31,135 nucleotides of DNA from Ilumatobacteraceae bacterium (GCA_007122945.1 SKSP01000150.1:1-31135); one strand, 5' to 3'. Positions 6,378-20,532 are shown, numbered from the stretch's first letter. Notes: generated by a model not told the origin, from the letters alone. Numbers and translations are program-made.

Positions 6378-6492
6378 ACCCGCCAGGCTACCCACCCACC
6401 CCCACGGAGGTTCTGACGATGCTCCCGGGCGCTGGTGTTCGGCCGGTGTGATCGGCCGGTGTTTCGGCGATGTGAACAACGACCGGCCGACA

Positions 6493-6532
6493 TTGTCCGA
6501 GATCATCTGTGCGTTTACTATATGCAAGCAGA
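6493..6532 (+). promoter_or_regulatory. sigma70-type promoter of the ABC operon (TTGTCC-N17-TACTAT) overlapped by a putative MarR operator
   Basis: TTGTCC at 6493-6498 and TACTAT at 6516-6521, 17-nt spacer. 6496-6513 matches the reverse complement of 16697-16714 at 17 of 18 positions. Confidence 0.7.
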
Positions 6533-6557
6533 CGAATTTCGGGGAGGACGACGTCGC

Positions 6558-7373
6558 ATGCTCGTGAGCGAGGAGCCAGGACCGACGGTGGGCACGGGAC
6601 CGCCGATCCCACCGCCCGGCCCGGACGCGTCGGGTGTCACCGTCTCGGTGCGCGGCGTGACCCGACAGTACCGGTCCGGGTTCGTCGCGCTCCAGGGCGC
6701 CGACCTGGAGATCGCGGCCGGGGAGATGGTCGCCCTCGTCGGTCCGTCGGGGTGCGGCAAGTCGACGCTCCTCAAGATCGTCGCCGGACTGCTCTCGGCG
6801 ACCGACGGCGAGGTGGCGTTCGGCGGCCCCGGAGGTCGGCCGGAGATCGGCTACGTGTTCCAGGACCCGCACCTGCTCCCGTGGCGCCGGACGCTCCGCA
6901 ACGTCGAGCTGTTCCTCGAGGTCGACGGCATGAAGAAGGCGGAGCGGCGCCGCCGAGCGCGCGAGGCGCTCGCCCTCGTCGGCCTGGCCGATTTCGAGGA
7001 CGCCTACCCGGCCCAGCTCTCGGGCGGCATGAAGATGCGCGTGAGCCTCGCCCGAACGCTCGCCACGGATCCGCAGCTGATGCTGTTCGACGAGCCGTTC
7101 GCCGCGGTCGACGAGATCACCCGCCACCGTCTCAACAACGACCTGATCCGACTGCAGCGCGAACGTCACGTCACCGGCGTGTTCGTCACCCACTCGATCA
7201 CCGAGTCGGTCTTCCTCGCGGATCGCGTCGCGGTCATGTCACCCAGCCCGGGCCGGATCGTGGACGTCGTCGACGTCCCGTTCGGCGACGAGCGGCCGCC
7301 GTCGTTGCGGACCACGCCCGAGTTCGCCGCCGTCGCCCGGCAGATCGGCGAGATCATGGGGGTCGAGGCGTGA
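6558..7373 (+). CDS. ABC transporter ATP-binding protein, NitT/TauT family
   Basis: GGAGG RBS at 6543-6547 and ATG at 6558. Walker A GPSGCGKS, Q-loop VFQD, signature LSGG, Walker B LMLFDEPF and H-loop VTHS. Confidence 0.95.
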   Translation: MLVSEEPGPTVGTGPPIPPPGPDASGVTVSVRGVTRQYRSGFVALQGADLEIAAGEMVALVGPSGCGKSTLLKIVAGLLSATDGEVAFGGPGGRPEIGYVFQDPHLLPWRRTLRNVELFLEVDGMKKAERRRRAREALALVGLADFEDAYPAQLSGGMKMRVSLARTLATDPQLMLFDEPFAAVDEITRHRLNNDLIRLQRERHVTGVFVTHSITESVFLADRVAVMSPSPGRIVDVVDVPFGDERPPSLRTTPEFAAVARQIGEIMGVEA

Positions 7374-8170
7374 ACCGGGTGCTCGGGGTGGCGCGGGCCG
7401 TGGTGCCGCCGTTGCTCGTCTTCGTCGTGTTGATGTTCGTGTGGTGGGCGGCCGTGCGGGCGCTGCAACCGCAGGCGTACATCTTCCCGTCGCCCGGTCG
7501 GGTGTGGGAGGCCGCCGTCAACGACTCCGACCGGCTGTGGACCGGTTTCCGCAACACGCTCTACGCGTCGGTGGTCGGCTTCCTCGCCGCCACCGCGGTC
7601 GGCGTCCTCGCTGCCCTGCTGCTCAGCCTCTCCCGCACGATCGAGCGGGCCTTCTTCCCGTGGGCGGTGCTGCTGCAGACCGTGCCGGCCGTGGCCGTCG
7701 CCCCGCTGTTCGTGCTGTGGTTCGGCCCCGGCCGCGGCTCGGTGATGCTCGTCGCGTTCACGATCACGCTGTTCCCGATCCTGGCCAACAGCCTCGCCGG
7801 CCTGCGCTCGGCCGACGCCGCGCTGGTCGACCTGATCCGCCTGCGCGGCCGTCGTCCGAACTCGCTGTTCACCTTCACCAAGATCCGCATCCCGAGCTCG
7901 TTGCCGTACCTGTTCACCGGGCTGCGGATCTCGGCCGGCCTCGCCGTGATCGGCGCGATCGTCGGCGAGATCGTCGTCGGCCGGGGCGGCCCGGAAGCCG
8001 GCCTGGGGTACTGGGTCACGTTCGGCACCACCCAGCTCCGGACCGACTTCGTGTTCGCGGCGATCGCGGTCTCCTCCGCGCTCGGCATCACGTTCTTCCT
8101 CGCCGTGTCGGCGATCGGCAACCGGGTCCTGCGCAACTGGCACGACTCGGCCCGCGACGCGGAGACCTGA
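7370..8170 (+). CDS. ABC transporter permease, NitT/TauT family
   Basis: GTGA overlap with the ATPase stop. Multiple hydrophobic segments plus 'QTVPAVAVAPLFVLWFG' and the EAA-like loop followed by 'KIRIPSSLPYLFTGLRIS'. Confidence 0.92.
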   Translation: MNRVLGVARAVVPPLLVFVVLMFVWWAAVRALQPQAYIFPSPGRVWEAAVNDSDRLWTGFRNTLYASVVGFLAATAVGVLAALLLSLSRTIERAFFPWAVLLQTVPAVAVAPLFVLWFGPGRGSVMLVAFTITLFPILANSLAGLRSADAALVDLIRLRGRRPNSLFTFTKIRIPSSLPYLFTGLRISAGLAVIGAIVGEIVVGRGGPEAGLGYWVTFGTTQLRTDFVFAAIAVSSALGITFFLAVSAIGNRVLRNWHDSARDAET

Positions 8171-8246
8171 TCCCCCTACCAGCCCAGTCCAACCACCCAT
8201 GTCCCGGACCATCCGGTCCCACACCACATCCCAGGAGCACGCAGCG

Positions 8247-9395
8247 ATGAACATCCGACGCACCCGACGACGCATCGTCCCCCTCCTCGCCGCGGCCGCC
8301 CTCGTGGTCGCCGCGTGCGGCGGCGACGATGATGCCGCCACCCCGGAGGCTCCCGACGAGCCGGCCGCCGAGCCGACCGACGACGAGCCGACCGACGACG
8401 AGCCGACCGACGACGAGCCGGCCGACGACGAGCCGACCGACGAGGAGCCGGCCGCCGACGAGCCGGCCACGACGGACGCCCCGCCCCCCGCCACCGGCGA
8501 CATGACCGTCCTCGACGAGCTGACCTCGGTGTCGGTGCAGTCGGACTGGTTCCCGTCGACCGACCACGCGGCGCTGTACGCCGCCGACTTCCTCGGGTTC
8601 TTCGCCGAGCGGAACCTCGAGGTCGAGATCCGCGAGGGCGGGCCTGGTATCCGGGCGGCCAACGACGTCGTCACCGGCAACGTCACGTTCGGCATGGCGA
8701 TCCCCGAGAACATCGTGCTCGCCGCGTCGGAAGGCGCCGAGCTGACCACGTTCTTCGCCACCTACCAGGTGTCGCCGATCGGCATCATGGTGCACGCCGA
8801 GTCGGGCATCACCGGCCTCGACGACCTGACCGAGGTGCAGATGTTCCCGGGCCAGGTGTTCTGGGAGGTCCTCAAGGCCGAGAGCGATCTCGAGGTCGAC
8901 GAGATCGCCTACGACGGCTCGCAGGCCGCGTGGCTCGAGAACAAGGAGTGGGGCGTCCAGGCGTTCGCCACGACGAACCCGAACGTGGCGCGCGAGAACG
9001 GCGCCGATCCGGTGATGCTGACCGCCACCGAGCTCGGGTTCCGCTCGTACGCGACCACGATCTTCACCTCCGACGAGTACGTCGAGGAGAACCCCGACGT
9101 GGTCCGGGCGTTCGCCGAGGCGTTGCAGGCCGGCCTCGAGGCGTTCCTCGACGACCCCGACCCGGTGATCGCCTACATCAACGAGGTGTACCCCGACTTC
9201 GAGATCTCCGTCGGCGAGGCCTCGTTCCCGGTGATGGCCGAGCTCGTCGTCAGCGACACGACCGACGAGCTCGGGCTCGGCGCGATGAGCGGAGACGTCT
9301 GGGAGGACGTCGCGAGCCGCATGCTCGCGGCCGACATCATCCGCACCGAGGTCGACGCCGACTCGCTCTGGACGAACGAGTTCCTCGTCGGCTGA
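8247..9395 (+). CDS. ABC substrate-binding lipoprotein, NMT1/THI5-like
   Basis: AGGAG RBS, basic N-region, lipobox VVAA-C and an acidic linker. Then 'QSDWFPSTDHAALYAADFLGFFAERNLEVEIREGG', a ThiY/NMT1-like N-terminal pattern. Confidence 0.85.
   Translation: MNIRRTRRRIVPLLAAAALVVAACGGDDDAATPEAPDEPAAEPTDDEPTDDEPTDDEPADDEPTDEEPAADEPATTDAPPPATGDMTVLDELTSVSVQSDWFPSTDHAALYAADFLGFFAERNLEVEIREGGPGIRAANDVVTGNVTFGMAIPENIVLAASEGAELTTFFATYQVSPIGIMVHAESGITGLDDLTEVQMFPGQVFWEVLKAESDLEVDEIAYDGSQAAWLENKEWGVQAFATTNPNVARENGADPVMLTATELGFRSYATTIFTSDEYVEENPDVVRAFAEALQAGLEAFLDDPDPVIAYINEVYPDFEISVGEASFPVMAELVVSDTTDELGLGAMSGDVWEDVASRMLAADIIRTEVDADSLWTNEFLVG
8370..8459 (+). repeat. in-frame 15-bp tandem repeat (6 units, GAGCCGRCCGMCGAS) encoding an EPTDD-type linker
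   Basis: GAGCCGACCGACGAC x3 followed by three variant units, read directly from the sequence. Confidence 0.9.
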
Positions 9396-9425
9396 CGTCT
9401 GCTGACGTCGACCCACCTGGTCGCG

Positions 9426-9478
9426 CCGGCAGCCGGTGGTCCCGCCCCTGGATCCGGGGTGGGCCACCGGCTTGCCGG
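9426..9478 (+). terminator. long GC-rich stem-loop downstream of the SBP gene (terminator or mRNA-stabilising hairpin)
   Basis: CCGGCA-GCCGGTGG-TCCCGCCCC [TGGATCC] GGGGTGGG-CCACCGGC-T-TGCCGG. There is no U-tract. Confidence 0.6.
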
Positions 9479-9511
9479 ATACAACATGCGCGCTTATGAT
9501 CTGCGGGCAGA
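9472..9511 (+). promoter_or_regulatory. sigma70-type promoter of the Rieske-LLM-deaminase operon (TTGCCG-N17-TATGAT) overlapped by a putative MarR operator
   Basis: TTGCCG at 9472-9477 and TATGAT at 9495-9500, 17-nt spacer. 9478-9511 matches 16671-16704 at 25 of 34 positions by eye. A GAAGGAGG RBS follows. Confidence 0.7.
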
Positions 9512-9535
9512 GGAACGAAGGAGGAAGAATCAGAC

Positions 9536-10627
9536 ATGCTGATCAGTGAGGTCCCGGCGTTCCGCGAGTACTGGTACCCGATCGGTTACAGCGGCGACAT
9601 CGCCGACGAGCCGACACCGTTCAAGATCTTCGGTGAGGAGTACGTCGCCTGGCGCGGTGGCTCCGGTGCGGTGCACGCCGCCCGCGACGAGTGCCCGCAC
9701 CGCCATGCCCGCCTCTCGCAGGGGTGGCTCGCCGACGGCTGCCTGACCTGCCCGTACCACGGGTGGAAGTTCGGCGAGGACGGCCACTGCGTGGAGATCC
9801 CCGCAGCGGATCCCGAGCTGCCGATCCCGCCGCGCGCCCACGTCGACAAGATCCTCGCCGCTGAGCGGTACGGGCTGGTGTGGGTGTGCGTGGGCATGCC
9901 CCGCGCCGGCATCCCCGACCTCGTCGAGGCCGACGACCCCGGCTACACCCTCATCCACGAGATGATGGACGTGTGGACGGCGTCCGCGCCGCGCATCGTC
10001 GACAACGCCCTCGACGTCAGCCACGTCGCCTGGGTGCACCGCAACTCGGTCGGTTCGTCGGCCAACCCCCGTCTCGAGGCCGGCCCGGTCGAGCGCGACG
10101 GGCAGACGTTCCGCTTCTCGGTCACGTTGATCTCCCAGGTCAACGAGCAGCAGAAGCGCAACACCGGCATCACCGCCGACACGACCCGGCGCACCACGCA
10201 CGCCGAGCTCGTGCAGCCGCTCGTGTTCCGGGGCCGGATGGTCTACGAGGAGAACGGGCTCGAGCACGTGCTCTACAAGACGTGCACCCCGATCGATGAC
10301 GAGCACACGCTGTTCTGCCAGTTCATCGCCCGCAACGACGACCCACCGCCCGAGAAGTGGGACAGCATCACCGCCGTCGACCGCCAGGTCCAGGCCGAGG
10401 ACCGGGCGCTGCTCGAGAACGTCAACCCGAACTTCCCGGTCGAGATCTCGACCGAGCTGCACACCAAGGCCGATCGGATGACGCTCGAGTACCGGCGCAT
10501 CCTCGCCGAGCTGGCCGCCGAGGCGCCCGGTGTCGCTCCCGACTCGGCGTGGGCCAAACCGTTCCGACGCGACCCGGTGCGCGATGCGCCGGTGCCGTCC
10601 GGCGCGACGTCCGACGGAGACGCGTGA
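9536..10627 (+). CDS. Rieske non-heme iron oxygenase, VanA/NdmA-like (O- or N-demethylase type)
   Basis: Rieske motif CPHR-x17-CPYH, mononuclear Fe motif DNALDVSHVAWVH, 'ERYGLVWV' and C-terminal 'AEDRALLE...ADRMTLEYRR'. Confidence 0.9.
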   Translation: MLISEVPAFREYWYPIGYSGDIADEPTPFKIFGEEYVAWRGGSGAVHAARDECPHRHARLSQGWLADGCLTCPYHGWKFGEDGHCVEIPAADPELPIPPRAHVDKILAAERYGLVWVCVGMPRAGIPDLVEADDPGYTLIHEMMDVWTASAPRIVDNALDVSHVAWVHRNSVGSSANPRLEAGPVERDGQTFRFSVTLISQVNEQQKRNTGITADTTRRTTHAELVQPLVFRGRMVYEENGLEHVLYKTCTPIDDEHTLFCQFIARNDDPPPEKWDSITAVDRQVQAEDRALLENVNPNFPVEISTELHTKADRMTLEYRRILAELAAEAPGVAPDSAWAKPFRRDPVRDAPVPSGATSDGDA

Positions 10628-10628
10628 C

Positions 10629-11588
10629 GTGAAGATCGGCATCCAGACACCACCGGAGCACACCGACTTCGCCGCGCTCGAAGCGGTGTGGGACGCGATC
10701 GACGAGCTCGGGTTCGCCGCCGCGTTCACGTTCGACCACCTCGTGCCGTTGAACCCCGGCGCCCGCCCGGGTGGGCCCGGCGGCGTCCCCGACGGGCCGC
10801 AGTTCGAGGGGTGGGCGACGCTGTGCGCGCTGGCGGCCCGCACCACCAACGTCCAGGTCGGCACGCTCGTCTCCGGGGTCACCTACCGTCACCCGGCGAT
10901 GCTCGCCAAGATGGCGGTGACCCTCGACCACATCACGCGCGGCCGGGCGATCCTCGGTCTCGGCGCCGCCTGGCACGAGGCGGAGCACCAGATGTACGGC
11001 ATCGACTTCCCGGGCGTCGGCGAGCGGATGGGTCGGCTCGACGAGGCGCTCGAGGTGATCGGCCGGCTCTGCCGCGCCGACCGCGACGACACCGTCGACT
11101 TCGACGGCCGCTACTACCAGCTCCAGGGCGCACCGTTCGACCCCAAGCCGGTGCGCCCCGAGGGGCTCCCGATCCTGGTCGGCGGCAGCGGCCCGCGGCT
11201 GAAGGGCATCGCAACGCGCCATGCCACGATCTTCAACAGCTTCGCCGCACCGTGGGAGTGGCCCGAGGTCAATGCCGACCTCGACGAGCGGCTTACCGCG
11301 GCCGGTCGCGGACCGGGCGACCTCATGCGTACGGCGTTCGTGTTCTGCGAGCTCTCCGGCGATCCCACGGCCGAGGACGCCCTCGTCGCCCACTTCCAGA
11401 AGAACCGTGGCGGCACGGACGAGGAGGTGCGCCGACGGGTCGTCGTCGGCTCGCCCGACCAGATGGCCGCTGTCCTGAACGGCTACGCCGACGCCGGCAT
11501 GGAGATGGCGATCATGAACCTGCGTCCGCCCTACCCCCTCGAGGGGCTGGAGCGCTTCGCGCGCGAGGTGCTCCCCGCCCTTGGGTAG
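10629..11588 (+). CDS. LLM-class oxidoreductase, probably F420-dependent (Rv1855c-like)
   Basis: GTG 1 nt after the Rieske stop. Motifs 'FDHL', 'EGWATLCALAART', 'GTLVSGVTYRHPAMLAKMAVTLDHITRGRAILGLGAAW' and 'PILVGGSG'. The F420 cofactor is inferred from the subfamily. Confidence 0.85.
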   Translation: MKIGIQTPPEHTDFAALEAVWDAIDELGFAAAFTFDHLVPLNPGARPGGPGGVPDGPQFEGWATLCALAARTTNVQVGTLVSGVTYRHPAMLAKMAVTLDHITRGRAILGLGAAWHEAEHQMYGIDFPGVGERMGRLDEALEVIGRLCRADRDDTVDFDGRYYQLQGAPFDPKPVRPEGLPILVGGSGPRLKGIATRHATIFNSFAAPWEWPEVNADLDERLTAAGRGPGDLMRTAFVFCELSGDPTAEDALVAHFQKNRGGTDEEVRRRVVVGSPDQMAAVLNGYADAGMEMAIMNLRPPYPLEGLERFAREVLPALG

Positions 11589-12933
11589 ATCGAAGCTCCC
11601 GGTCGATCTGCTCGTCAGGGGCGGCACCGTCGTCGCCGTCGACGCCGACGACACCGTCGTGCGCGCCGATGTCGCGGTGGCCGACGGCCGCATCGCCGGC
11701 ATCGGCCGGGACCTCGACGTGGAGCCCGAGGTCGTCCTCGATGCCACCGACGCCGCGGTCGTCCCCGGGTTCGTCAACGCCCACATGCACGAGACGCTCG
11801 ACCGGGGCGTGTTCGAGGACCTCCCGTTCGTCGAGTGGCTGGAGGAGTACGCGCTCCCGAAGGACATGGCGTACGAGCCGCGGCACATGCGCGCCGCGGC
11901 GATGCTCAACCAGGCCGAGATGATCGCCGGCGGGACGACGTCGTTCATCGACATCTTCCGCCATCCCCACGAGGTCGCCGCGGTCGCCGAGCGGTCGGGA
12001 CTGCGCGCGACGATCAGCCCCCAGATCGTCGACACGCCCGCAGGCGCGGGCGAGACGGTCGCCGACGCGGTCGGTTTCGTCGAGCACTGGCACCGCCGGA
12101 TCCCCGGCCGGATCCGAGCCTGGTTCGGGCCGCACGCGCTCTACTCGTGCACCCCCGAGACGTACCGCTGCATCCGCGAGCTCACCTGCGTGTACGACGT
12201 CGGCATCCACACCCACCTCGCGGAGAGCCGGGCGGAGGCGGGCATGATCGCCGAGCAGTCCGGTGGGCTCAGCCCGGTTCGATGGCTCGACGAGTTGGTC
12301 GGCCTGGGCTCCGATGTCGTGGCGGCGCACTGCGTCGAGCTGTCCGACGACGATCTCGCCCTGCTCGTCGAGCGCGGGGTCGGCATCGCCCACTGCCCGA
12401 CCTCGAACGCCAAGCTCGGCAACGGCATCGCCCGGATCCCCGAGATGCTCGCCGCGGGTGCCGTCGTCGGGCTCGGGACCGACTCGAACATGACCAACAA
12501 CGACCTCGACATGTTCGAGGAGATGCGACTCGCCGCGCTCGTCCAGAAGCAGCGCACCGGGGATCCGACGGTCCTGCCGAGCGGGCAGGTCCTGCGGATG
12601 GCGACGATGGGCTCGGCGCGGGTGCTGGGCGTCGACCACCGGGTCGGCAGCATCGAGGTCGGCAAGGCGGCCGATCTGGCGGTGGTCGACCTGCGGGGCG
12701 CGCACGCCCGCCCGATCGTCCGGCACGGCCGCACGAACATCGTCGAGCAGCTCGTGTGGGCGTGCTCGGCGCGCGACGTCCGCCACACCGTCGTCGACGG
12801 GCGGGTGCTGATGCAGGACCGGCAGCTGCTCACGCTCGACGTGGAGGAGGTCGTCGAGCTCGCCGACCGCGAGATCGTGGATCTCCTTCGCTCGGCCGGC
12901 GTGCTCGAGAAGCGCTTCGGCCCCGCCACCTGA
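11581..12933 (+). CDS. amidohydrolase-superfamily deaminase, MtaD/Tm0936-like
   Basis: Metal ligands PGFVNAHMH, HTHLAE, AAHCV and GLGTD. Also 'EDLPFVEWL', 'GPHALYSC' and 'HCPTSNAKLGNG'. The TTG start overlaps the upstream stop, so the exact start is uncertain. Confidence 0.88.
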   Translation: MGRSKLPVDLLVRGGTVVAVDADDTVVRADVAVADGRIAGIGRDLDVEPEVVLDATDAAVVPGFVNAHMHETLDRGVFEDLPFVEWLEEYALPKDMAYEPRHMRAAAMLNQAEMIAGGTTSFIDIFRHPHEVAAVAERSGLRATISPQIVDTPAGAGETVADAVGFVEHWHRRIPGRIRAWFGPHALYSCTPETYRCIRELTCVYDVGIHTHLAESRAEAGMIAEQSGGLSPVRWLDELVGLGSDVVAAHCVELSDDDLALLVERGVGIAHCPTSNAKLGNGIARIPEMLAAGAVVGLGTDSNMTNNDLDMFEEMRLAALVQKQRTGDPTVLPSGQVLRMATMGSARVLGVDHRVGSIEVGKAADLAVVDLRGAHARPIVRHGRTNIVEQLVWACSARDVRHTVVDGRVLMQDRQLLTLDVEEVVELADREIVDLLRSAGVLEKRFGPAT

Positions 12934-12980
12934 CGAACCGTCCGCGCCGATCGGCCGGTTCCCGCCGATCGACGCGGACG
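12934..12980. terminator. stem-loop between convergent genes, containing a REP-like 25-bp repeat
   Basis: CGTCCGCG (12939-12946) pairs with CGCGGACG (12973-12980). 12934-12958 is identical to 30821-30845. Confidence 0.6.
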
Positions 12981-13012
12981 AAACGGGACTGGGCAGTGGT
13001 CGCGGGCAGTGG

Positions 13013-15292
13013 TCAGGTGAGCAGGTCGTCCGGGCGGACCGGGACGCGGTGCACCGGTGCGCCGGTCGCGGTCCGGATCGCAGCGGCGATCGCGGCCGTG
13101 GAGGAGAGTGCCGAGGGTTCGCCGACGCCCTTCAGTCCGAACGGCGCGTCGGGGTCGGGTTCCTCGATCAACGCGGCCTCGACCGGCGCGACGTCGGCCG
13201 CCGTGGGGATCAGGTAGTCCGTGAACGTGTTGTTGACGACGTGGCCGTCGCGGGTCTCGAGGTGCTCGTTGAGGGCGAGCCCGATGCCCTGGGTGATCCC
13301 GCCGAGGATCTGCCCGCGCACCTCGCGTGGGTTGAGGGCCCGCCCGACGTCCTGGGCCGTGGCGACCTGGGCGACCCGACACAGCCCGAGCTCGACGTCG
13401 ACGTCGACGATCGCCCGGTGGGCGACGAACATCCACGACACGTGCACGTCACCCTGCCCGGTCGTCGGATCGCCGCGATGGGTCCGCGGCGGCCGGTACT
13501 CGGTGGTGGCGACGATCGGCTCGTCACCGACCAGCTCGTCGAGGCTGATCAGCTCGTCGCCGACGAGCGCGCCGTCGGGGACGAGCTCGACGTCGTCGGG
13601 AGTCACGCCGGCGCGTCCGGCCGCGTCGGTGAGCAGCCGCGCCGCCACCTCGGCGGCCGCCTGACGAACCGCCGCGCCCGACATCCACGTCTGACGACTC
13701 GCCGACGACGAACCCGAGTACCCGGCCTCCGTGGTGGCCGGCTCGACCTCGACCGGCATGCCGCCGAGCGCCGCCGAGGCGATCTGGGCGAGCGCGCTCA
13801 CGATCCCCTGACCGCACTCGGCGGCGGCCGAACGGATGGTCGCGCCGTTGGCGGTGACCGTCACCGTGGCGACCGATCGCTCGGTCACACCCTCCCCGTA
13901 GAGATGGTTCTTCACCCCGAGCGCGAAACCGACGCCACGGCGGACGTGCTCGCCGTCGGTGGTGAGCCCGGTCCCGCCCGGCAGGTCGTAGGGATGGGTC
14001 GGGTCACCGGGCAGGGGTGCCGGTTCCGGCAGGGCGGTGCACCGGTCGATCAGCTCGCGCAGCGGTGCCGAGGGTCCGACCCGCTGGCCCGACGTGGGGA
14101 ACTCGTCGCCGGGTGCGAGGACGTTCCGGCGGCGCAGCTCGATCGGGTCGATCCCGAGCTCGGCCGCCAGGAGATCGACCGTCGACTCGATGCCGAAGCA
14201 GGCCTGGACGGCGCCGAACCCCCGCATCGCCCCGCACACCGGGTTGTTGGTGCGTGCCGCTCGGCCGCGGACCCGGACGACGGGGACGCGATACGGGCCG
14301 GCGGCGAAGTAGCACGCGCTGCCGAGCACCGGCCCGGACGTGCTCGCGTACGCGCCACCGTCGAGCACGATGTCGGCCTCGACGAAGCGGAACGTGCCGT
14401 CGCGGTCGGCGCCCATCCGGTAGCGCAACGTCGCCGGGTGACGCTTGGGATGGGCGAGGAACGACTCGGCGCGCCGGTAGGTGGTCTTCACCGGTCGGCC
14501 CGTGGCCAGGGCGGCGAGCGCGAGGTGGACCTGACAGGTGATGTCCTCCCGTCCGCCGAACGCACCGCCGATCCCGGACATCACGAGGCGGACCTGCTCC
14601 TCCTCGAGGCCGAGCACCGAGGCGATCTGCTCCTGGTCGGTGTGCAGGTCCTGCGTGGCGAGCACGAGCGTGACCCCACCGTCCACGTCCGGCATCGCGA
14701 GGGCGGACTCGGGGCCGAGGAAGGCCTGGTCCTGGCGGCCGGTCGACCACGTGCCCTCGACGATCACGTCGGCCGTCAGTGGCCCGTCGCCGCGCTCGAG
14801 GCACAGCTCGCGGATCACGTTGCCGTCGGGATGCACGCGCTGGCTGTCGGGCGTGAGCGCGAGGTCGGGGTCCGTCAGCGGCTCGAGCGTCTCCCACGTG
14901 ACCTCGACGAGGTCGGCCGCGCGCCAGGCCAGCTCCTGGCTGCGGGCCACCACGAAGGCGACCGGCTCGCCGACGTACCGCGCCACCCCGTCGACGAAGG
15001 GCGGCGCGTCGGCGACGATGTGCCCGGTGCGCGCCCGGGTCGGGACGTCGTCGAGCGTGAGGATCCGCACGACGCCGGGTGTCGACAGTGCCGCCGAGAT
15101 GCCGAGGTGCACGAGTCGGGCGTGTGGGTGCGGGCTGCGGACCGTCGCTCCGAAGAGCATGCCCGCGACCGAGACGTCGTTGGAGAACTCGAACGAGCCG
15201 TCGATCTTGGGTGGGACGTCCGGTCGTGGAACCGACCGACCGATGGGTGACGCACCCGTCGCGGGTGCGTCGACCAGGCTCTCGACGCTCAT
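13013..15292 (-). CDS. xanthine dehydrogenase-family molybdopterin-binding (large) subunit
   Basis: ATGA overlap with the small-subunit stop. Moco motifs GGAFGGRE, AMRGFG, ECGQG and SSSASRQT, plus C-terminal KGVGE carrying the catalytic Glu. Confidence 0.93.
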   Translation of the reverse strand: MSVESLVDAPATGASPIGRSVPRPDVPPKIDGSFEFSNDVSVAGMLFGATVRSPHPHARLVHLGISAALSTPGVVRILTLDDVPTRARTGHIVADAPPFVDGVARYVGEPVAFVVARSQELAWRAADLVEVTWETLEPLTDPDLALTPDSQRVHPDGNVIRELCLERGDGPLTADVIVEGTWSTGRQDQAFLGPESALAMPDVDGGVTLVLATQDLHTDQEQIASVLGLEEEQVRLVMSGIGGAFGGREDITCQVHLALAALATGRPVKTTYRRAESFLAHPKRHPATLRYRMGADRDGTFRFVEADIVLDGGAYASTSGPVLGSACYFAAGPYRVPVVRVRGRAARTNNPVCGAMRGFGAVQACFGIESTVDLLAAELGIDPIELRRRNVLAPGDEFPTSGQRVGPSAPLRELIDRCTALPEPAPLPGDPTHPYDLPGGTGLTTDGEHVRRGVGFALGVKNHLYGEGVTERSVATVTVTANGATIRSAAAECGQGIVSALAQIASAALGGMPVEVEPATTEAGYSGSSSASRQTWMSGAAVRQAAAEVAARLLTDAAGRAGVTPDDVELVPDGALVGDELISLDELVGDEPIVATTEYRPPRTHRGDPTTGQGDVHVSWMFVAHRAIVDVDVELGLCRVAQVATAQDVGRALNPREVRGQILGGITQGIGLALNEHLETRDGHVVNNTFTDYLIPTAADVAPVEAALIEEPDPDAPFGLKGVGEPSALSSTAAIAAAIRTATGAPVHRVPVRPDDLLT

Positions 15293-15786
15293 CCGGTGCG
15301 CTCCCGACCCGACGCATCGCGCCGGGCCTCGTCCACCCGGAGCACCGCAGCGATGATCCCCTCGTAGCCGGTGCAGCGGCAGAGGTTGCCGGCGAGGGAC
15401 TCGCGCACGCCGTGCTCCGTGAGGGGTTCCGGGTCGGCGAGAGCGGCCTCGGCCGCCACGACGATGCCCGGGGTGCAGAACCCGCACTGGACGGCGCCGT
15501 GTTCGGCGAGCGCGTCGGCGAGGTCAGCCCGTACGAAGCTGCGCACCGTGCGGATGACGCTGCCGTGGCAGACGAGAGCGGGGACGAGACACGAGCACTC
15601 CACGCGTCCGTCGATCTCGACCGAGCACGAGCCGCACTCACCCTGCTCGCACGCACCGGTCGTCGCCGTGGCACCGGCGTCGCGCAACGCCCGGAGCAGA
15701 CTGGTCGCCGGTGTCGCCTCCAGGGTGGTGTCCCTCCCGTCGAGCGTGATGGCCACCTCGAGGGCCGACGGCATGGCGTCGCTCAC
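15289..15786 (-). CDS. xanthine dehydrogenase-family 2Fe-2S (small) subunit
   Basis: CEQGECGSC...SC and QCGFCTPG...GNLCRCTGY motifs. Start is GTG 15786 (GTGA overlap) or ATG 15774. Confidence 0.93.
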   Translation of the reverse strand: MSDAMPSALEVAITLDGRDTTLEATPATSLLRALRDAGATATTGACEQGECGSCSVEIDGRVECSCLVPALVCHGSVIRTVRSFVRADLADALAEHGAVQCGFCTPGIVVAAEAALADPEPLTEHGVRESLAGNLCRCTGYEGIIAAVLRVDEARRDASGRERTG

Positions 15787-16649
15787 GCCGCCACCTCCCC
15801 GGCGGTACGCCAGAGTCGGGCGTGCGTCCGGCGGGCGAGGACCCCGAGCGCGTGGCGGCGGTAGGTCGCGCTGGCGCGGGCGTCGTCGATCGGCGACGCG
15901 CCCCGGACGACCTCGGCGGCGAACGCGTCCGCTGCACCGGGGTCGAGCAGGGCGGGCTCCGCGTCGTGGACGCGCCGGACCGTCGGCGCCGCCGAACCGA
16001 TAGCGACCCGCGCGACCCCGCTCGCCGGGTCGAGCCGAGCTGCGATCGAGCACACGCTGATCACCATCGCGTTGCGGGTCCCAACCTTGGCGAAGGCGTC
16101 GAAACCGCCGAGGGCGTGGAGGTGGACCGCGGTGATCAGCTCGTCCGGGCGGCGGACCGTCCGCTTCGGCCCGGTGGCGAACTCCTCGAGCGGGACCCGA
16201 CGCACGCCGTCGCAGGACGCCAGTTCGACGTGCGCGTCGCAGCACAGCAGGGGCGGGACGGCGTCCGCCGCCGGCGACGCCGTGGCGAGGTTGCCGCCGA
16301 GCGTGCCTGCCCGTCGGATCTGCGGGCTCCCGACCGTCCGAGCGGCCGCTGCGAGCGACGGCACCGAGTCGGCGAGCAGCGCCTCGATCTCGGCGAACGT
16401 GATGCCGGCGCCGAGCACCAGCGAGTGCTCGTCGGCGACGATGCGGCCGAGCTCGGCAACCCGCCGTAGCGACAGCCATCCGGCAACGTTGGTGCGACCG
16501 TCGTTCACGCCCACCATGGCGTCGGTTCCCCCGTTCACGACGTAGAGTTCCGGACGCTCGGCCAACAGGATCGTCGCTTCGTGGCGGGTCGTCGGCGTGG
16601 CGAACGGCGGGAGGATGGGCTCGTCCGACGGCGGGGGCATCGAGCTCAT
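15783..16649 (-). CDS. xanthine dehydrogenase-family FAD-binding (medium) subunit
   Basis: Motifs 'NGGTD', 'GSPQIRRAGTLGGNLATASPAAD', 'AKVGTRNAMVIS' and 'SPIDDARASATYRRH'. Confidence 0.92.
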   Translation of the reverse strand: MSSMPPPSDEPILPPFATPTTRHEATILLAERPELYVVNGGTDAMVGVNDGRTNVAGWLSLRRVAELGRIVADEHSLVLGAGITFAEIEALLADSVPSLAAAARTVGSPQIRRAGTLGGNLATASPAADAVPPLLCCDAHVELASCDGVRRVPLEEFATGPKRTVRRPDELITAVHLHALGGFDAFAKVGTRNAMVISVCSIAARLDPASGVARVAIGSAAPTVRRVHDAEPALLDPGAADAFAAEVVRGASPIDDARASATYRRHALGVLARRTHARLWRTAGEVAA

Positions 16650-16670
16650 CGATCGGCATCCGTCCGGGGG

Positions 16671-16714
16671 GATACAATCAGTGCGAACATGATCTGCGCA
16701 CAGATTATCTCGGA
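16671..16714. promoter_or_regulatory. putative MarR operator: two overlapping imperfect palindromes in the divergent XDH/MarR intergenic region
   Basis: ATGATCTG-CGCA-CAGATTAT at 16689-16708. A second related site, ACAATCAGTGCGAACATGAT, lies at 16674-16693 (offset 15 nt). Confidence 0.7.
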
Positions 16715-16769
16715 TCTGATGGATTCGAAAGCGTCGAACGGGTCGAACGGCTCAGAAAGGGGTGGAGTG

Positions 16770-17324
16770 ATGGCACGTCGACCGTCGGAATCCGGTGGCC
16801 GCGAGCTCGGGACGTCGTTCCCGGCGTCCTCCGCGTGGGACAAATTGGGGTTCCTGCTGTGGCACGCCACGCTGGAGTGGCAGCGTCAGGTCTCGGCGGC
16901 GCTCAAGTCGCTCGACCTCACCCACGTGCAGTTCGTCCTGCTGGCGGGCACGAACTGGCTCGAGCAGCGCTCCGGGCCGCCGTCGCAGCGCGAGTTGGCC
17001 GACCACTCCGGGACCGACGCGATGATGACCTCCCAGGTGGTGCGGGCCCTCGAGCGGGCCGGTCTGGTGCGGCGCCTCCCCGACCCCGACGACGCCCGGG
17101 TGAAGCGCGTGTCCACGACGCCCCAGGGTGCCGACCTCGCACGCCGGGCCGTCGCGCTCGTCGAGGACGTCGACCGGCGGGTGTTCGGCGAGGTCGACGA
17201 TCTCGACCGGCTCCGCATCGCCCTGCGGTCCGTCGCCGGGCGCGACGAGTTCGGCCGTCCCTTGGCCGGCACCGCTGACGCGCCAGGGGCTGGTGCCGAA
17301 CGGGCCGGTGCGACTCGAACATGA
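16770..17324 (+). CDS. MarR-family transcriptional regulator
   Basis: 'LDLTHVQFVLL', HTH 'SQRELADHSGTDAMMTSQVVRALERAGLVRR' and wing 'DDARVKRVSTTPQG'. Divergent from the XDH operon. Confidence 0.92.
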   Translation: MARRPSESGGRELGTSFPASSAWDKLGFLLWHATLEWQRQVSAALKSLDLTHVQFVLLAGTNWLEQRSGPPSQRELADHSGTDAMMTSQVVRALERAGLVRRLPDPDDARVKRVSTTPQGADLARRAVALVEDVDRRVFGEVDDLDRLRIALRSVAGRDEFGRPLAGTADAPGAGAERAGATRT

Positions 17325-18322
17325 GTGGTCAGTCGGGACGCCCGGTACCGGTGATCGTGGACACCGACGGCGGTGTCGACGACGCCGCAGCACTGTGGTT
17401 CGCGGCGACCGCACCCGATGTCGAGCTCGTCGCGGTGACGGTCGTGCACGGCAACGTCGACGTCGGCGTCGCGGCGGCCAACGTCTGTCGGGTCCTCGAG
17501 GCGGCGGGGCGTCCGGACGTCCCCGTCGTCGTCGGTGAGCCCGCGCCGCTCGGTCCGGTCCCCGTGCTGCGGCGCGCCGACTTCATCCACGGGACGGACG
17601 GGCTCGGCGAGACGCACCGGCCGCCGGCGGCGTTCGGCCCGACCGGAACGATCGTGGCCGACGCCTGGGCCGGCGCCGTGACCGACCGGCCCGACGAGAT
17701 CACGCTCGTCACGCTCGGGCCGCTCTCGAACCCGGCGTCGGTGTTCCGTCGGGACCCCGACGTGGCCACCGGATTCCGCCGCCTCGTGATCATGGGCGGC
17801 GTCGTCGGTGGGCCGGGCAACGCGCTGCCGCTCGCCGAGGCGAACATCGCCCACGATCCGGTCGCGGCCGAGGAGGTCGTCACGGCGCAGTGGGCGCGAC
17901 CACCGCTGATGGTCGGTCTCGACGTGACCCACCGGGCGACGTTCACCGCCGCCGAGGTGGCCGTGCTCGAGCGCCGGGAGACCCCGGCCGCCCGCTTCCT
18001 CGCCGAACCGCTCGCCTTCTACGGTCGCTCCGCCGGCACGTTCTGCGCCCCGGGGGAGTTCCCGTGCCACGACCTGCTCGCCGTGCTCGCAGCGGTGCGC
18101 GACGTCGTCGATGGACCCGTGCTGCCGCTCGCCGTGCAGACCGCGCCCGGCCCGGCGTGGGGCGCGACCGTGGCGGACCGCCGCGTCCCGTTCTTCGAGC
18201 GCGCCGGCGCCGGCTCCCAGCAGGGGATGCTGGAGGGTTTCGCCCCCTGGCAGATCGCCCTCACCGTCGACCCCCCCACCTTCCGCCATGCGGTTCTGAC
18301 AATGTTCTCGGTCGCTGACTGA
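17321..18322 (+). CDS. nucleoside hydrolase (IUNH family)
   Basis: N-terminal DTDGGVDD Ca-binding motif, 'HGTDGLG', 'LGPLSN', 'IMGG', 'AEANIAHDP', 'VGLDVT' and 'HDLLAV'. ATGA overlap with the marR stop. Confidence 0.92.
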   Translation: MSGQSGRPVPVIVDTDGGVDDAAALWFAATAPDVELVAVTVVHGNVDVGVAAANVCRVLEAAGRPDVPVVVGEPAPLGPVPVLRRADFIHGTDGLGETHRPPAAFGPTGTIVADAWAGAVTDRPDEITLVTLGPLSNPASVFRRDPDVATGFRRLVIMGGVVGGPGNALPLAEANIAHDPVAAEEVVTAQWARPPLMVGLDVTHRATFTAAEVAVLERRETPAARFLAEPLAFYGRSAGTFCAPGEFPCHDLLAVLAAVRDVVDGPVLPLAVQTAPGPAWGATVADRRVPFFERAGAGSQQGMLEGFAPWQIALTVDPPTFRHAVLTMFSVAD

Positions 18323-20497: not shown

Positions 20498-20532
20498 GTC
20501 GTGAGCGTGCCACACCGAGGTGCGGATCACGG

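What the first reader, a model, noticed from the sequence alone, without database searches (positions are those of the whole stretch)
6493..18322. Candidate undescribed actinobacterial regulon for importing and degrading modified (probably N-methylated) nucleosides or nucleobases
Seen: eleven contiguous genes in four transcription units. These are a NitT/TauT ABC transporter with an NMT1/THI5-like lipoprotein; Rieske oxygenase + LLM oxidoreductase + MtaD-like deaminase; three XDH-family subunits; and MarR + IUNH nucleoside hydrolase. A shared operator-like motif ties them together. Known: NMT1/THI5-like proteins bind pyrimidine/purine-type ligands, IUNH enzymes cleave N-glycosidic bonds, MtaD/Tm0936 enzymes deaminate adenosine derivatives, NdmA/NdmB-type Rieske enzymes N-demethylate methylxanthines in Pseudomonas putida CBB5, and XDH-family enzymes hydroxylate purines. 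Inference: import, deamination, deribosylation, demethylation and Mo-dependent hydroxylation of a methylated nucleoside such as an RNA-turnover product or a methylxanthine, with an extra probable F420-dependent step. I do not know of this combination being characterised in Actinobacteria.
Basis: partly seen in the sequence, partly recalled or inferred. Interest (0 to 1): 0.85.

Follow-up and report, generated by a model that had tools for sequence, protein, structure and literature searches.

The report
Purine-nucleoside breakdown regulon, orphan Rieske oxygenase
An uncultured Ilumatobacter-like actinobacterium carries an eleven-gene, repressor-controlled cluster for importing and degrading a purine-type nucleoside or base; it is built around a widespread but uncharacterised oxygenase whose substrate, possibly a modified purine, is still unknown.

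Summary
Eleven genes in four transcription units lie at 6558-18322, and all family assignments are confirmed. A 20-bp palindrome (ATnATnTGCGCGCAnATnAT) marks the promoters. It is almost unique to this cluster in the 3.96-Mb genome and sits at the same places in related genomes.

In 74 related loci the Rieske gene recurs beside nucleoside importers, deribosylating enzymes, amidohydrolases, XDH and in a few loci the uricase pathway. So this is a purine nucleoside or base catabolic regulon.

N-demethylation is not shown.
- The closest characterised relative is HpxD, the Mo-independent xanthine hydroxylase (150 bits), not NdmA (112 bits).
- The xanthine-pocket residues shared by NdmA and HpxD (F, F, N, V, F) are A, V/L, D, V/I, Q here. 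A, D and Q are (near-)invariant in 69 members.
- All five carrier genomes tested also have a canonical XDH. The window's own XDH is a diverged paralogue, and a canonical PucD copy lies elsewhere.

The oxygenase therefore probably acts on a non-canonical purine of unknown identity.

Related gene sets (the xanthine-riboswitch regulon, HpxDE, NdmH) are published; this clade and combination are not. This is a new variant of a known kind, of moderate interest. The scan had noted other putative methylpurine operons on other DNA, but not this family.

The parts
6502..6535 (.). Weak operator-like site in the 179-bp divergent region before the ABC operon
   Evidence: 4 mismatches to the palindrome. By my own count, 19 of 26 bases match the Rieske-upstream site. 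An equivalent site with core TATGCGCACAGAC stands before the ABC operon in L002.
6558..7373 (+). ABC transporter ATPase (NitT/TauT type)
   Evidence: PF00005, 1.2e-31. Best NCBIfam matches are taurine, nitrate and sulfonate ATPases, all below cut-off. ATG 6558 follows a GGAGG.
7370..8170 (+). ABC permease
   Evidence: PF00528, 2.8e-19. SsuC/TauC-like. GTGA overlap with the ATPase stop.
8199..9395 (+). NMT1/THI5-like substrate-binding lipoprotein with an acidic Pro/Asp/Glu/Thr linker
   Evidence: PF09084, 4.4e-28. Lipobox VAAC after an RRR signal. Nearest solved structures are 4nmy and ThiY 3ix1, both distant. Orthologues of 71-81% identity lie next to the Rieske gene in 13 loci.
9431..9472 (+). 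Terminator-like hairpin ending the ABC operon
   Evidence: 17-nt arms, 82% complementary.
9481..9515 (.). Two overlapping copies of the palindromic operator, 20 nt before the Rieske start
   Evidence: The same position is occupied in 11 related loci.
9536..10627 (+). Rieske non-haem iron oxygenase of an uncharacterised clade related to HpxD, SxtT and NdmA
   Evidence: PF00355 and PF19112. Scores: PDB SxtDIOX 131.7, NdmA 111.9, NdmB 88.2 bits; HpxD 33% identity and 150.5 bits. Clade support 100/95. Pocket residues A158, D282 and Q286 are (near-)invariant.
10629..11588 (+). Luciferase-like (LLM) oxidoreductase, probably F420-dependent
   Evidence: PF00296, 4e-42. TIGR03560 scores 202.8 bits against a cut-off of 231.4. 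No close solved structure. Lies next to the amidohydrolase in about 23 loci.
11581..12933 (+). Tm0936/MtaD-type amidohydrolase (deaminase or related hydrolase)
   Evidence: PF01979, 6.6e-61. Best NCBIfam match is 5'-deoxyadenosine deaminase, 360.7 bits against a cut-off of 522. PDB Pa3170, Xcc2270 and Cv1032 score about 220 bits. Only 23% identical to E. coli SsnA and 27% to GuaD.
13013..15292 (-). XDH-family molybdopterin subunit, a diverged PucD paralogue
   Evidence: TIGR03196 scores 738 bits against a cut-off of 783.65. Motifs GGAFGGRE, AMRGFG and GVGEPS correspond, by my reading from known XDH motifs, to bovine E802, R880 and E1261. The second genomic copy on C459 scores 853.5 bits.
15289..15786 (-). 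XDH 2Fe-2S subunit
   Evidence: PF01799 and PF00111. XdhC/PucE-like. GTGA and ATGA overlaps.
15783..16649 (-). XDH FAD-binding subunit
   Evidence: PF00941 and PF03450. XdhB-like.
16674..16708 (.). Palindromic operator in the divergent XDH/MarR promoter region
   Evidence: 16689-16708 has 1 mismatch, and 16674 has 4. The site is conserved before MarR in L002, L005-L008 and L060.
16770..17324 (+). MarR-family regulator, the presumed repressor binding the palindrome
   Evidence: PF01047. It resembles generic MarRs; HucR is not among the PDB hits. Orthologues lie in 20 loci.
17321..18322 (+). IUNH-family nucleoside hydrolase
   Evidence: PF01156, 2e-67. DTDGGVDD motif. RihC/RihA-like, below cut-offs. 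Orthologues lie in 16 loci.

Best explanation
This is a MarR-repressed regulon for taking up and degrading a purine-type nucleoside or nucleobase that ordinary purine catabolism cannot handle directly.

Proposed flow (family assignments and linkage are shown; the order of steps and the chemistry are inferred):
1. The NMT1-type lipoprotein ABC system imports the free base. In relatives a Bmp-type nucleoside ABC importer sits in the same operon.
2. The IUNH hydrolase removes ribose.
3. The Rieske oxygenase carries out the O2-dependent committing step on the heterocycle. This is either C-hydroxylation or oxidative dealkylation. The polar pocket (invariant Asp and Gln, Ala in place of the stacking Phe) argues for a substrate with N-H or amino groups, or a positive charge, rather than xanthine or caffeine.
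4. The Tm0936-type amidohydrolase removes an exocyclic amino or alkylamino group.
5. The diverged PucD-type XDH hydroxylates the ring.
6. The translationally coupled LLM performs a hydride step, probably with F420.

MarR binds the palindrome at the Rieske promoter, at the XDH/MarR promoter and, more weakly, at the ABC promoter, and is released by the substrate or an intermediate.

For: - All eleven families are confirmed.
- The operator is specific to this cluster genome-wide and is conserved at the same positions in relatives.
- Context in 74 loci from Actinomycetota and Alphaproteobacteria, with one locus labelled Acidobacteriota, within 10 kb of the Rieske gene (lower bounds, since many contigs end): Bmp-type ABC 47, LLM 26, this amidohydrolase 23, XDH Mo subunit 17 at 50% identity or more, MarR 20, IUNH 16, NMT1-type SBP 13, PfkB plus LOG-like nucleotide glycosidase about 20, VanB-type reductase 11.
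- Actinomadura locus: amidohydrolase-Rieske | MarR | IUNH-reductase-uricase-OHCU decarboxylase-HIU hydrolase-allantoinase-ureidoglycine aminohydrolase.
- Alphaproteobacterial operon: GntR | AKR-PfkB-LOG-like-Bmp-ABC-Rieske.
- All five carrier genomes tested have a canonical XDH, so the Rieske enzyme is not merely a substitute for XDH.
- This genome has a canonical PucD elsewhere (853 bits), while the cluster's copy is diverged (738 bits).
- The XDH keeps the purine-binding Glu, Arg and Glu.
- The pocket differs from the shared NdmA/HpxD pocket.
- In Proteobacteria, NMT1-like SBPs, Rieske/PDR oxygenases and 8-oxoguanine-deaminase-like amidohydrolases are co-regulated by a xanthine/urate riboswitch (PMC7373994).
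Against: - No substrate is identified and nothing has been assayed.
- No reductase for the Rieske enzyme was found in the window or in this 88%-complete genome.
- No uricase or other downstream ring-opening genes were found here, so the end of the pathway is unknown.
- NMT1-type SBPs and IUNH/RihA-like hydrolases also serve pyrimidines, so a pyrimidine-type substrate is not excluded.
- The related loci were retrieved with two peptide patterns, one of which contains A158. That biases the A158 column, but not D282 or Q286.
- Many loci are close relatives, so the counts are not independent.
Confidence: 0.55

Rival explanations
1. The substrate is an N-methylated purine nucleoside or base (m1A, m6A, m7G, m2,2G or a methylxanthine), and the Rieske enzyme is an NdmA/B-type N-demethylase that releases formaldehyde. 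This is a special case of the best explanation.
For: - Full-length homology to NdmA (3e-31) and NdmB (4e-24).
- One monooxygenase step that returns a modified base to normal purine catabolism fits the minimal alphaproteobacterial operon.
- The Rieske gene co-exists with canonical XDH.
- An invariant Asp in the pocket could suit a cationic methylpurine (inference).
- Hydrolytic catabolism of N2,N2-dimethylguanine was shown in 2026 (PMC13054789).
Against: - HpxD and the Sxt hydroxylases score higher than NdmA and NdmB.
- Four of the five anchorable NdmA pocket residues are replaced.
- No NdmD-type reductase is present.
- No formaldehyde- or folate-handling genes appeared in the four loci annotated with Pfam.
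Confidence: 0.2
2. Ordinary purine catabolism. The Rieske enzyme is an HpxD-like, molybdenum-independent hydroxylase of hypoxanthine or xanthine, or a C8-hydroxylase of guanine or adenine that feeds an 8-oxopurine deaminase. It works in parallel with XDH.
For: - HpxD is the closest characterised relative (33% identity, 150.5 bits).
- In the Actinomadura loci, the Rieske gene plus a VanB-type reductase are the only hydroxylase candidates in a cluster that continues into uricase, allantoinase and later steps.
- The Tm0936 group includes guanine and 8-oxoadenine deaminases (from my recollection of the Raushel-laboratory work; not checked here).
Against: - All five genomes tested already have a canonical XDH.
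- In 17 loci the Rieske gene sits beside an XDH.
- The F/F/N/V/F pocket shared by HpxD and NdmA is replaced by A/V-L/D/V-I/Q.
- The clade is separated from HpxD by a long, fully supported branch.
Confidence: 0.13
3. The substrate is a sugar-modified nucleoside such as a 2'-O-methylribonucleoside. IUNH releases a normal base, which goes through the deaminase and XDH, plus 2-O-methylribose. The VanA-type Rieske enzyme then O-demethylates the sugar or the nucleoside.
For: - IUNH-family enzymes, including one from the actinobacterium Agromyces, hydrolyse 2'-O-methylnucleosides, and the fate of the sugar is unknown (PMC12709175).
- The VanA_C family includes O-demethylases.
- A polar pocket would suit a sugar.
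- Sugar kinases, an AKR and an SDR recur in related loci.
Against: - The importer linked to the cluster here, and in 13 loci, is an NMT1-type SBP, a family known for flat heterocycles.
- The nearest characterised relatives all act on purine-like heterocycles.
- The cluster XDH is a diverged paralogue, not the housekeeping enzyme.
Confidence: 0.07
4. The coupled LLM-amidohydrolase pair is not a deaminase module. It is an F420-using analogue of YgfK-SsnA from the reductive uric-acid pathway, in which hydride reduction dearomatises a dioxopurine and the amidohydrolase opens the ring. This would replace the missing uricase route. This rival concerns only that sub-module.
For: - The reductive-pathway paper reports SsnA clusters in Chloroflexota where a luciferase-family, putatively F420-dependent enzyme replaces YgfK, and says reduction must be coupled to SsnA hydrolysis (bioRxiv 10.1101/2025.05.19.654654).
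- LLM and amidohydrolase overlap by 8 nt here and are adjacent in about 23 loci.
- No uricase was found in this genome.
- Loci with uricase lack the LLM.
Against: - The amidohydrolase is only 23% identical to SsnA. It scores 166 bits on the SsnA model (cut-off 444), against 361 bits on the 5'-deoxyadenosine deaminase model.
- The Mo subunit is closer to XdhA than to XdhD.
- No YgeW, YgeX or YqeA homologues are present in the genome.
- The uricase/LLM exclusivity rests on 3 loci and follows phylogeny.
Confidence: 0.1
5. The eleven genes are neighbours by chance and are not one functional system.
For: - The flanking NMO and DUF7715 genes are not conserved with the cluster.
- The composition of the cluster varies between lineages.
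Against: - L002 is syntenic for all eleven genes.
- The modules recur across phyla.
- The shared operator is near-unique to this cluster.
Confidence: 0.03

Closest known systems
HpxDE, the molybdenum-cofactor-independent xanthine/hypoxanthine hydroxylase of Klebsiella (annotated hpxD in Pantoea, Erwinia, Acinetobacter and Paraburkholderia)
   Same: - Same Rieske/VanA_C architecture and size.
- It is the closest characterised relative (33% identity, 150.5 bits).
- It acts in purine catabolism.
- A VanB/PDR-type reductase is adjacent in 11 related loci.
   Different: - It forms a separate clade on a long branch.
- Pocket residues F/F/N/V/F are replaced by A/V-L/D/V-I/Q.
- There is no adjacent reductase here.
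- The Rieske gene co-exists with XDH rather than replacing it.
NdmA/NdmB methylxanthine N-demethylases of Pseudomonas putida CBB5
   Same: - Full-length homology (111.9 and 88.2 bits).
- Intact Rieske and 2-His-1-Asp iron sites.
- The substrate class is purines.
   Different: - They are more distant than HpxD and SxtT.
- The hydrophobic caffeine pocket is not conserved.
- There is no NdmD-type reductase and no NdmC/E.
- The regulator, transporter and partner enzymes all differ.
Xanthine (NMT1-motif) riboswitch regulon of Proteobacteria (Yu and Breaker 2020, PMC7373994)
   Same: The gene set is similar: NMT1/THI5-like SBPs of TauA-type ABC importers, Rieske/PDR oxygenases, and amidohydrolases resembling guanine or 8-oxoguanine deaminases. 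That regulon is tied to purine oxidation.
   Different: - Control here is by a MarR protein and a DNA palindrome. No riboswitch was found in the window or the tested loci.
- XDH, LLM and IUNH are additional here.
- The functions of the riboswitch-linked oxygenases are also still unknown.
Bacillus subtilis PucABCDE xanthine dehydrogenase (TIGR03196 PucD family)
   Same: - Three-subunit Mo/FAD/2Fe-2S enzyme.
- PucD is the best model (738 bits).
- The purine-binding Glu, Arg and Glu are kept.
   Different: - It scores below the family cut-off.
- The genome has a second copy above the cut-off (853.5 bits, 51% identical), so the cluster enzyme is a specialised paralogue.
Tm0936 / MtaD / DadD group of adenosine-analogue deaminases (PDB 4gbd, 4dzh, 4f0r, 1p1m)
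   Same: - Best structural and NCBIfam relatives (about 220 bits; 360.7 bits on the 5'-deoxyadenosine deaminase model).
- The metal-binding HxH, the Trp of the EWL motif and the PHA motif align.
   Different: - It scores below every equivalog cut-off.
- The Glu that binds the ribose hydroxyls in Tm0936 (position assigned from memory of that structure) is Asp here (LPKD).
Reductive uric-acid (2,8-dioxopurine) pathway XdhD-YgfK-SsnA and its putative F420/LLM variant (bioRxiv 10.1101/2025.05.19.654654)
   Same: It also combines an XDH homologue, a reductase and a coupled amidohydrolase. A luciferase-family F420 enzyme has been proposed as the reductase in some phyla.
   Different: - The amidohydrolase is not an SsnA orthologue.
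- The XDH is XdhA/PucD-like, not XdhD-like.
- The downstream genes are absent.
- An O2-dependent Rieske enzyme is present.
NdmH, N2,N2-dimethylguanine hydrolase (Drexler et al. 2026, PMC13054789)
   Same: It shows that bacteria have dedicated amidohydrolases for methylated purine bases, and it belongs to the same superfamily.
   Different: NdmH is AtzB-like. The window enzyme matches the AtzB/8-oxoguanine deaminase structure at only 137 bits, against 222 bits for Tm0936-type enzymes.

Membership tests
NdmA/NdmB-type methylxanthine N-demethylase | Rieske CxH...CxxH cluster ligands and 2-His-1-carboxylate iron site | tested here: met
   C53, H55, C72, H75, H163, H168 and D289 are invariant in 69 family members.
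NdmA/NdmB-type methylxanthine N-demethylase | Substrate pocket F168, F174, N282, V285, F286 (NdmA numbering) | tested here: not met
   The residues here are A158, V/L164, D282, V/I285 and Q286. HpxD keeps F, F, N, V, F.
NdmA/NdmB-type methylxanthine N-demethylase | Dedicated NdmD/VanB-type reductase encoded nearby | tested here: not met
   None in the window or in this 88%-complete genome. A VanB-type reductase is adjacent in 11 related loci. It was absent, with this query, from 4 of 5 Acidimicrobiia carrier genomes.
NdmA/NdmB-type methylxanthine N-demethylase | N-demethylase activity with formaldehyde release | not testable with these tools
   Needs an enzyme assay.
HpxD xanthine hydroxylase | Orthology-level similarity and a shared clade | tested here: not met
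   33% identity. It is a separate clade with 100/100 support on a long branch.
HpxD xanthine hydroxylase | Stands in for XDH in genomes or clusters | tested here: not met
   A canonical XDH is present in 5 of 5 carrier genomes. An XDH lies in the same cluster here and in 17 loci.
Xanthine dehydrogenase (PucD type) | Mo, FAD and 2Fe-2S subunits | tested here: met
   Pfam and NCBIfam matches. The three genes are translationally coupled.
Xanthine dehydrogenase (PucD type) | Score above the TIGR03196 equivalog cut-off | tested here: not met
   738 bits against 783.65. The paralogue on contig C459 scores 853.5.
Xanthine dehydrogenase (PucD type) | Purine-binding and catalytic Glu802, Arg880, Glu1261 (bovine numbering) | tested here: met
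   GGAFGGRE, AMRGFG and GVGEPS. The correspondence was read from known XDH motifs, not from a computed alignment.
IUNH nucleoside hydrolase | N-terminal DxDxxxDD calcium/ribose motif and the full-length domain | tested here: met
   DTDGGVDD. PF01156, 228 bits. Base specificity was not determined.
Tm0936/MtaD adenosine-analogue deaminase | Amidohydrolase metal ligands and overall similarity | tested here: met
   Aligned over the full length with Pa3170, Xcc2270 and Cv1032.
Tm0936/MtaD adenosine-analogue deaminase | Ribose-binding Glu (Tm0936 Glu84) and an equivalog-level score | tested here: not met
   Asp stands at that position. 360.7 bits against a cut-off of 522.
F420-dependent LLM oxidoreductase | Subfamily model above its cut-off, and F420 biosynthesis genes in the genome | tested here: inconclusive
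   TIGR03560 scores 202.8 bits against 231.4. CofD is present. FbiC/CofH was not found in this incomplete genome but is present in 4 of 5 relatives.
SsnA ring-opening amidohydrolase | Orthology to E. coli SsnA | tested here: not met
   23% identity. 166 bits against a cut-off of 444.
Urate-responsive MarR (HucR/UrtR) | Close similarity to HucR-type regulators | tested here: not met
   HucR is not among 34 PDB matches; the best is Rv2887 at 42 bits. The four urate-binding residues were not checked.
NitT/TauT ABC importer with NMT1-like SBP | ATPase, permease and NMT1-domain lipoprotein in one operon | tested here: met

The most novel reading that the evidence does not exclude
The conserved Rieske clade would be the entry enzyme of an undescribed aerobic pathway. 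The clade has at least 474 database proteins and is present in Actinomycetota, with one nested transfer into Alphaproteobacteria. The pathway would return modified purines shed by RNA turnover, for example methylated guanines or adenines, to central purine catabolism. In this reading the enzyme recognises the substrate through an invariant Asp/Gln pocket. In Acidimicrobiia it works with a specialised XDH paralogue, a Tm0936-type hydrolase and an F420-type LLM, in genomes that lack any VanB-type reductase.
Probability: 0.3. Interest if true: 0.8.

Novelty: new variant of a known kind. Interest (0 to 1): 0.55.

Why it matters
The fate of non-canonical purines and modified nucleosides released by RNA turnover is a long-standing gap in nucleotide metabolism. 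The first dedicated bacterial enzymes were reported only in 2025-2026: NdmH, and the 2'-O-methylnucleoside demethylases.

This cluster offers a concrete, testable system:
- an orphan oxygenase clade conserved across two phyla;
- cultured carriers;
- a natural reductase partner in related clusters;
- a defined repressor and operator that could serve as a ligand sensor;
- a substrate-binding protein for ligand screening.

Identifying the substrate would also help to annotate the xanthine-riboswitch-linked oxygenases, whose function is still unknown, and hundreds of proteins now labelled 'aromatic ring-hydroxylating dioxygenase'. If the enzyme proves to be only a second xanthine hydroxylase, the finding is ordinary.

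Tried and rejected
- **Rfam.** Scans of the window and of seven alphaproteobacterial loci found no riboswitch. A search for the xanthine riboswitch RF03054 in five genomes or records found nothing, and the controls did not ring either, so it is uninformative.
- **HucR-type MarR.** Not supported.
- **SsnA, XdhD and the reductive uricolysis pathway.** The amidohydrolase and XDH are not orthologues, and ygeW, ygeX and yqeA are absent.
- **Class-wide survey.** Only 3 of 150 other sampled genomes of the class have a hit at E<=1e-80, with identities of 68%, 49% and 39%. The distribution is too patchy for genome-level co-occurrence statistics.
- **All-ORF clustering of the loci.** Antisense ORFs in high-GC DNA contaminated the clusters. 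For example, the 'GNAT' cluster is real in only about 9 loci. I relied on the tblastn tables instead.
- **SBP homologues on plasmids.** They are only 26-31% identical and uninformative.
- **Literature searches.** Searches for Rieske with modified nucleosides or 7-methylguanine, and for HpxDE, found no description of this cluster.
- **Riboflavin or pterin substrates.** I considered these because Bmp- and NMT1-type SBPs also import riboflavin. I set them aside because an N-glycosidase (IUNH or LOG-like) recurs and the XDH keeps its purine-binding residues.
- **Tree with NdmA and SxtT.** I could not include them because PDB sequences are not held as session sequences. Their relation rests on phmmer scores and printed alignments.

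Full report
**Observation**

The window has 71% GC, so raw ORF lists are noisy. A three-phase GC plot together with Pfam and NCBIfam scans resolves eleven genes between 6558 and 18322.
- An ABC importer: ATPase 6558-7373, permease 7370-8170, and an NMT1-like lipoprotein 8199-9395 with a VAAC lipobox and a long acidic linker. A hairpin at 9431-9472 ends the operon.
- A second operon: a Rieske/VanA_C oxygenase (9536-10627), a luciferase-like oxidoreductase that starts 1 nt after the Rieske stop (10629-11588), and an amidohydrolase that overlaps it by 8 nt (11581-12933).
- A convergent XDH operon whose three genes are coupled by GTGA and ATGA overlaps: FAD 16649-15783, FeS 15786-15289, Mo 15292-13013.
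- A MarR gene (16770-17324) overlapping an IUNH hydrolase gene (17321-18322).

The flanking NMO and DUF7715 genes are not conserved with the cluster.

**The operator**

The promoter regions share a 20-bp palindrome, ATnATnTGCGCGCAnATnAT.
- With up to three mismatches it occurs at 9481, 9496 and 16689, against 0.01 expected.
- The whole 3.96-Mb assembly holds only six such sites, three of them here. A reversed-sequence control gives none.
- The site before the ABC operon is weaker (6502, four mismatches). The syntenic locus L002 has an equivalent site, with core TATGCGCACAGAC, at the same place.
- The palindrome lies within about 70 bp upstream of the Rieske start in eleven other loci (about 0.3 expected from the background density). 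It also lies before MarR in L002, L005-L008 and L060.

This agrees with another first-stage note on the same stretch (e1-5298349). The regulator is a generic MarR, not a HucR-type urate sensor.

**Comparative genomics**

The Rieske protein has at least 474 database relatives at E<=1e-10, all named only generically. An alignment-based scan returned 74 loci from Acidimicrobiia, several other actinobacterial orders and Alphaproteobacteria, plus one contig labelled Acidobacteriota. Identity to the window protein is mostly 55-82%.

Within 10 kb of the Rieske gene the neighbours were counted by tblastn. The counts are lower bounds, because many contigs end inside the 10 kb.

| Neighbour | Loci |
|---|---|
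| Bmp-type (nucleoside-type) ABC importer | 47 |
| The LLM | 26 |
| This amidohydrolase, at 50% identity or more | 23 |
| A second, related amidohydrolase | about 17 |
| The XDH Mo subunit, at 50% identity or more | 17 |
| MarR | 20 |
| IUNH | 16 |
| The NMT1-type SBP | 13 |
| PfkB kinase plus a LOG-like nucleotide glycosidase | about 20 |
| VanB-type reductase | 11 |

- L002 is syntenic for all eleven genes.
- In Actinomadura the order is ribokinase-SDR | amidohydrolase-Rieske | MarR | IUNH-reductase-uricase-OHCU decarboxylase-HIU hydrolase-allantoinase-ureidoglycine aminohydrolase.
- In Alphaproteobacteria the operon is GntR | AKR-PfkB-LOG-like-Bmp-ABC-Rieske, sometimes followed by the reductase.
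- In the Aldehydirespirator-type Acidimicrobiia the order on one strand is Rieske, NMT1-type ABC, Bmp-type ABC, LLM, amidohydrolase.

The recurring logic is: import a nucleoside or base, remove the ribose, oxygenate, and pass the product to purine catabolism.

A maximum-likelihood tree shows the family as one clade (support 100/95). The alphaproteobacterial sequences form a single clade nested among actinobacterial ones. Within the class the gene is rare: 3 of 150 other sampled genomes had a hit at E<=1e-80. It therefore looks like an accessory catabolic trait.

**What the Rieske enzyme is, and is not**

By one method (phmmer, same database size) the window protein scores as follows.

| Comparison protein | Bits |
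|---|---|
| Pantoea HpxD (molybdenum-independent xanthine hydroxylase) | 150.5 |
| SxtDIOX | 131.7 |
| SxtT | 126 |
| NdmA | 111.9 |
| NdmB | 88.2 |

HpxD itself matches SxtT, NdmA and NdmB about equally. All of these therefore form one subfamily that acts on purine-like heterocycles, by either C-hydroxylation or N-demethylation.

The caffeine-contacting residues of NdmA are F168, F174, F223, L248, N282, V285 and F286 (bioRxiv 10.1101/2021.12.17.472166). Five of them can be placed relative to the iron ligands. NdmA and HpxD share F, F, N, V, F at these positions. The family here has A158, V/L164, D282, V/I285 and Q286. D282 and Q286 are invariant, and A158 is nearly so, in 69 members. One caveat applies: A158 lies inside one of the peptide patterns used to retrieve the loci.

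The pocket is therefore more polar and roomier than a xanthine or caffeine pocket.

All five carrier genomes tested hold a canonical XDH above the family cut-off. In Dactylosporangium and in 17 loci an XDH lies in the same cluster. The enzyme is therefore unlikely to be a plain XDH substitute, and it is not an NdmA orthologue. Its reaction remains open.

**The partner enzymes**

- **XDH.** The Mo subunit scores 738 bits on the PucD model, just below the cut-off of 783.65. It keeps the motifs that hold bovine Glu802, Arg880 and Glu1261 (the correspondence is read from known motifs). The genome has a second, canonical PucD-type XDH on contig C459 (853.5 bits, 51% identical). The cluster copy is therefore a specialised paralogue.
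- **Amidohydrolase.** It is nearest to the Tm0936, Pa3170 and Cv1032 adenosine-analogue deaminases (about 220 bits) and is below every equivalog cut-off. It has Asp where those enzymes have the ribose-binding Glu. It is only 23% identical to SsnA and 27% to GuaD.
- **LLM.** It is closest to the F420 subfamily TIGR03560 but below the cut-off, and far from any solved structure. CofD is present in the genome. FbiC was not found in this 88%-complete MAG, but it is present in four of five related carriers.
- **IUNH.** It has the DTDGGVDD motif.
- **Not found in this genome.** No uricase and no VanB-type reductase were found.

**Link to published work**

Yu and Breaker (PMC7373994) showed that a xanthine/urate riboswitch in Proteobacteria controls three kinds of genes: NMT1/THI5-like SBPs of TauA-type importers, Rieske/PDR and other oxygenases, and amidohydrolases like guanine or 8-oxoguanine deaminases. 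They noted that the oxygenase functions are unknown. Part of the combination in this window is therefore already linked to purine oxidation.

The reductive uric-acid pathway paper proposes a luciferase-family F420 enzyme as a substitute for YgfK, coupled to SsnA. That gives an alternative role for the LLM-amidohydrolase pair, but orthology is lacking.

NdmH (PMC13054789) and the 2'-O-methylnucleoside work (PMC12709175) show that dedicated catabolism of modified purines and nucleosides exists and is only now being uncovered.

I found no paper describing this clade or this cluster. Earlier notes of this scan describe other putative methylpurine operons on other DNA (e1-3032031, e1-5257973), but not this Rieske family.

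**Verdict**

The general reading, a regulon for a purine-type and probably non-canonical nucleoside or base, is the best-supported explanation (about 0.55).

The specific N-methyl/NdmA reading is one special case of it (about 0.2). It is weakened by the closer kinship to HpxD and by the non-conserved pocket.

The other rivals are:
- an HpxD-like or C8-hydroxylase role in ordinary purine catabolism (0.13);
- O-demethylation of 2'-O-methyl sugars (0.07);
- for the LLM-amidohydrolase pair only, a reductive ring-opening role (0.1).

This is a new variant of a known kind of system. Its value is as a well-defined entry point for identifying an orphan oxygenase family.

Noticed in passing
74 related loci (L001-L074); window 10629-11588: The LLM (26-28 loci) and a VanB-type reductase (11 loci) never occur together next to the Rieske gene. 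With the Actinomadura reductase as query, 4 of 5 Acidimicrobiia carrier genomes have no VanB-type reductase anywhere. The split follows phylogeny, so it is not independent evidence. Still, the electron donor of the Rieske enzyme in these lineages is unknown.
   Followed up: partly
own genome, contig C324 (L087:299-2765 and on to 9054): A paralogous Rieske gene (38% identical) lies divergent from a TRZ/ATZ-type amidohydrolase, directly beside urease genes (UreD, UreF, alpha subunit) and a formamidase. It may be a second N-heterocycle catabolic module.
   Followed up: partly
own genome, contig C323 (L086): A third module combines a Rieske protein (28% identical), an NMT1-type ABC importer (ATPase 50% identical), another LLM, a metallophosphoesterase and a gamma-glutamyltranspeptidase.
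   Followed up: partly
own genome, contig C459 (L090:1630-5311): A second three-subunit XDH is present. Its Mo subunit passes the PucD cut-off (853.5 bits), so it is probably the housekeeping enzyme.
   Followed up: yes
own genome, contig C120 (L088:6234-12403): A Bmp-type ABC importer is followed by an aldo-keto reductase that is 56% identical to the AKR of the alphaproteobacterial Rieske operon. It is unlinked to the window, and no palindrome was found there.
   Followed up: partly
L023-L059, e.g. L077:1399-11062: An alphaproteobacterial operon, GntR | AKR-PfkB-LOG-like (TIGR00725)-Bmp-ABC-permease-permease-Rieske, is conserved in at least 17 species of Rhodobacterales and Hyphomicrobiales. 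Its Rieske clade is nested within Actinobacteria, which suggests one inter-phylum transfer.
   Followed up: partly
window 6431-6475: Two 21-nt direct repeats (76% alike, 24 nt apart), and overlapping 13-nt repeats, lie in the divergent NMO/ABC promoter region, upstream of the operator-like site. Their function is unknown.
   Followed up: no
window 8322-8500 (SBP residues about 42-100): The mature SBP begins with a repetitive acidic linker of about 60 residues (DDEPT-type repeats) between the lipid anchor and the NMT1 domain.
   Followed up: no
window 1581-2825, 23555-24829, 18926-20938, 21489-22232: The flanks hold two cytochrome P450 genes, a carboxyltransferase, an acyl-ACP thioesterase-like gene and alpha/beta hydrolases. 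This is lipid or xenobiotic metabolism and is not conserved with the cluster.
   Followed up: no
L039, L044, L045, L048, L055, L057, L067, L072 at about 8.1-9.9 kb: In Aldehydirespirator-type loci a GNAT acetyltransferase gene lies divergent from the Rieske gene in place of MarR. A CoxG-FAD-FeS-Mo enzyme of another XDH subfamily (29-35% identical) lies upstream.
   Followed up: partly
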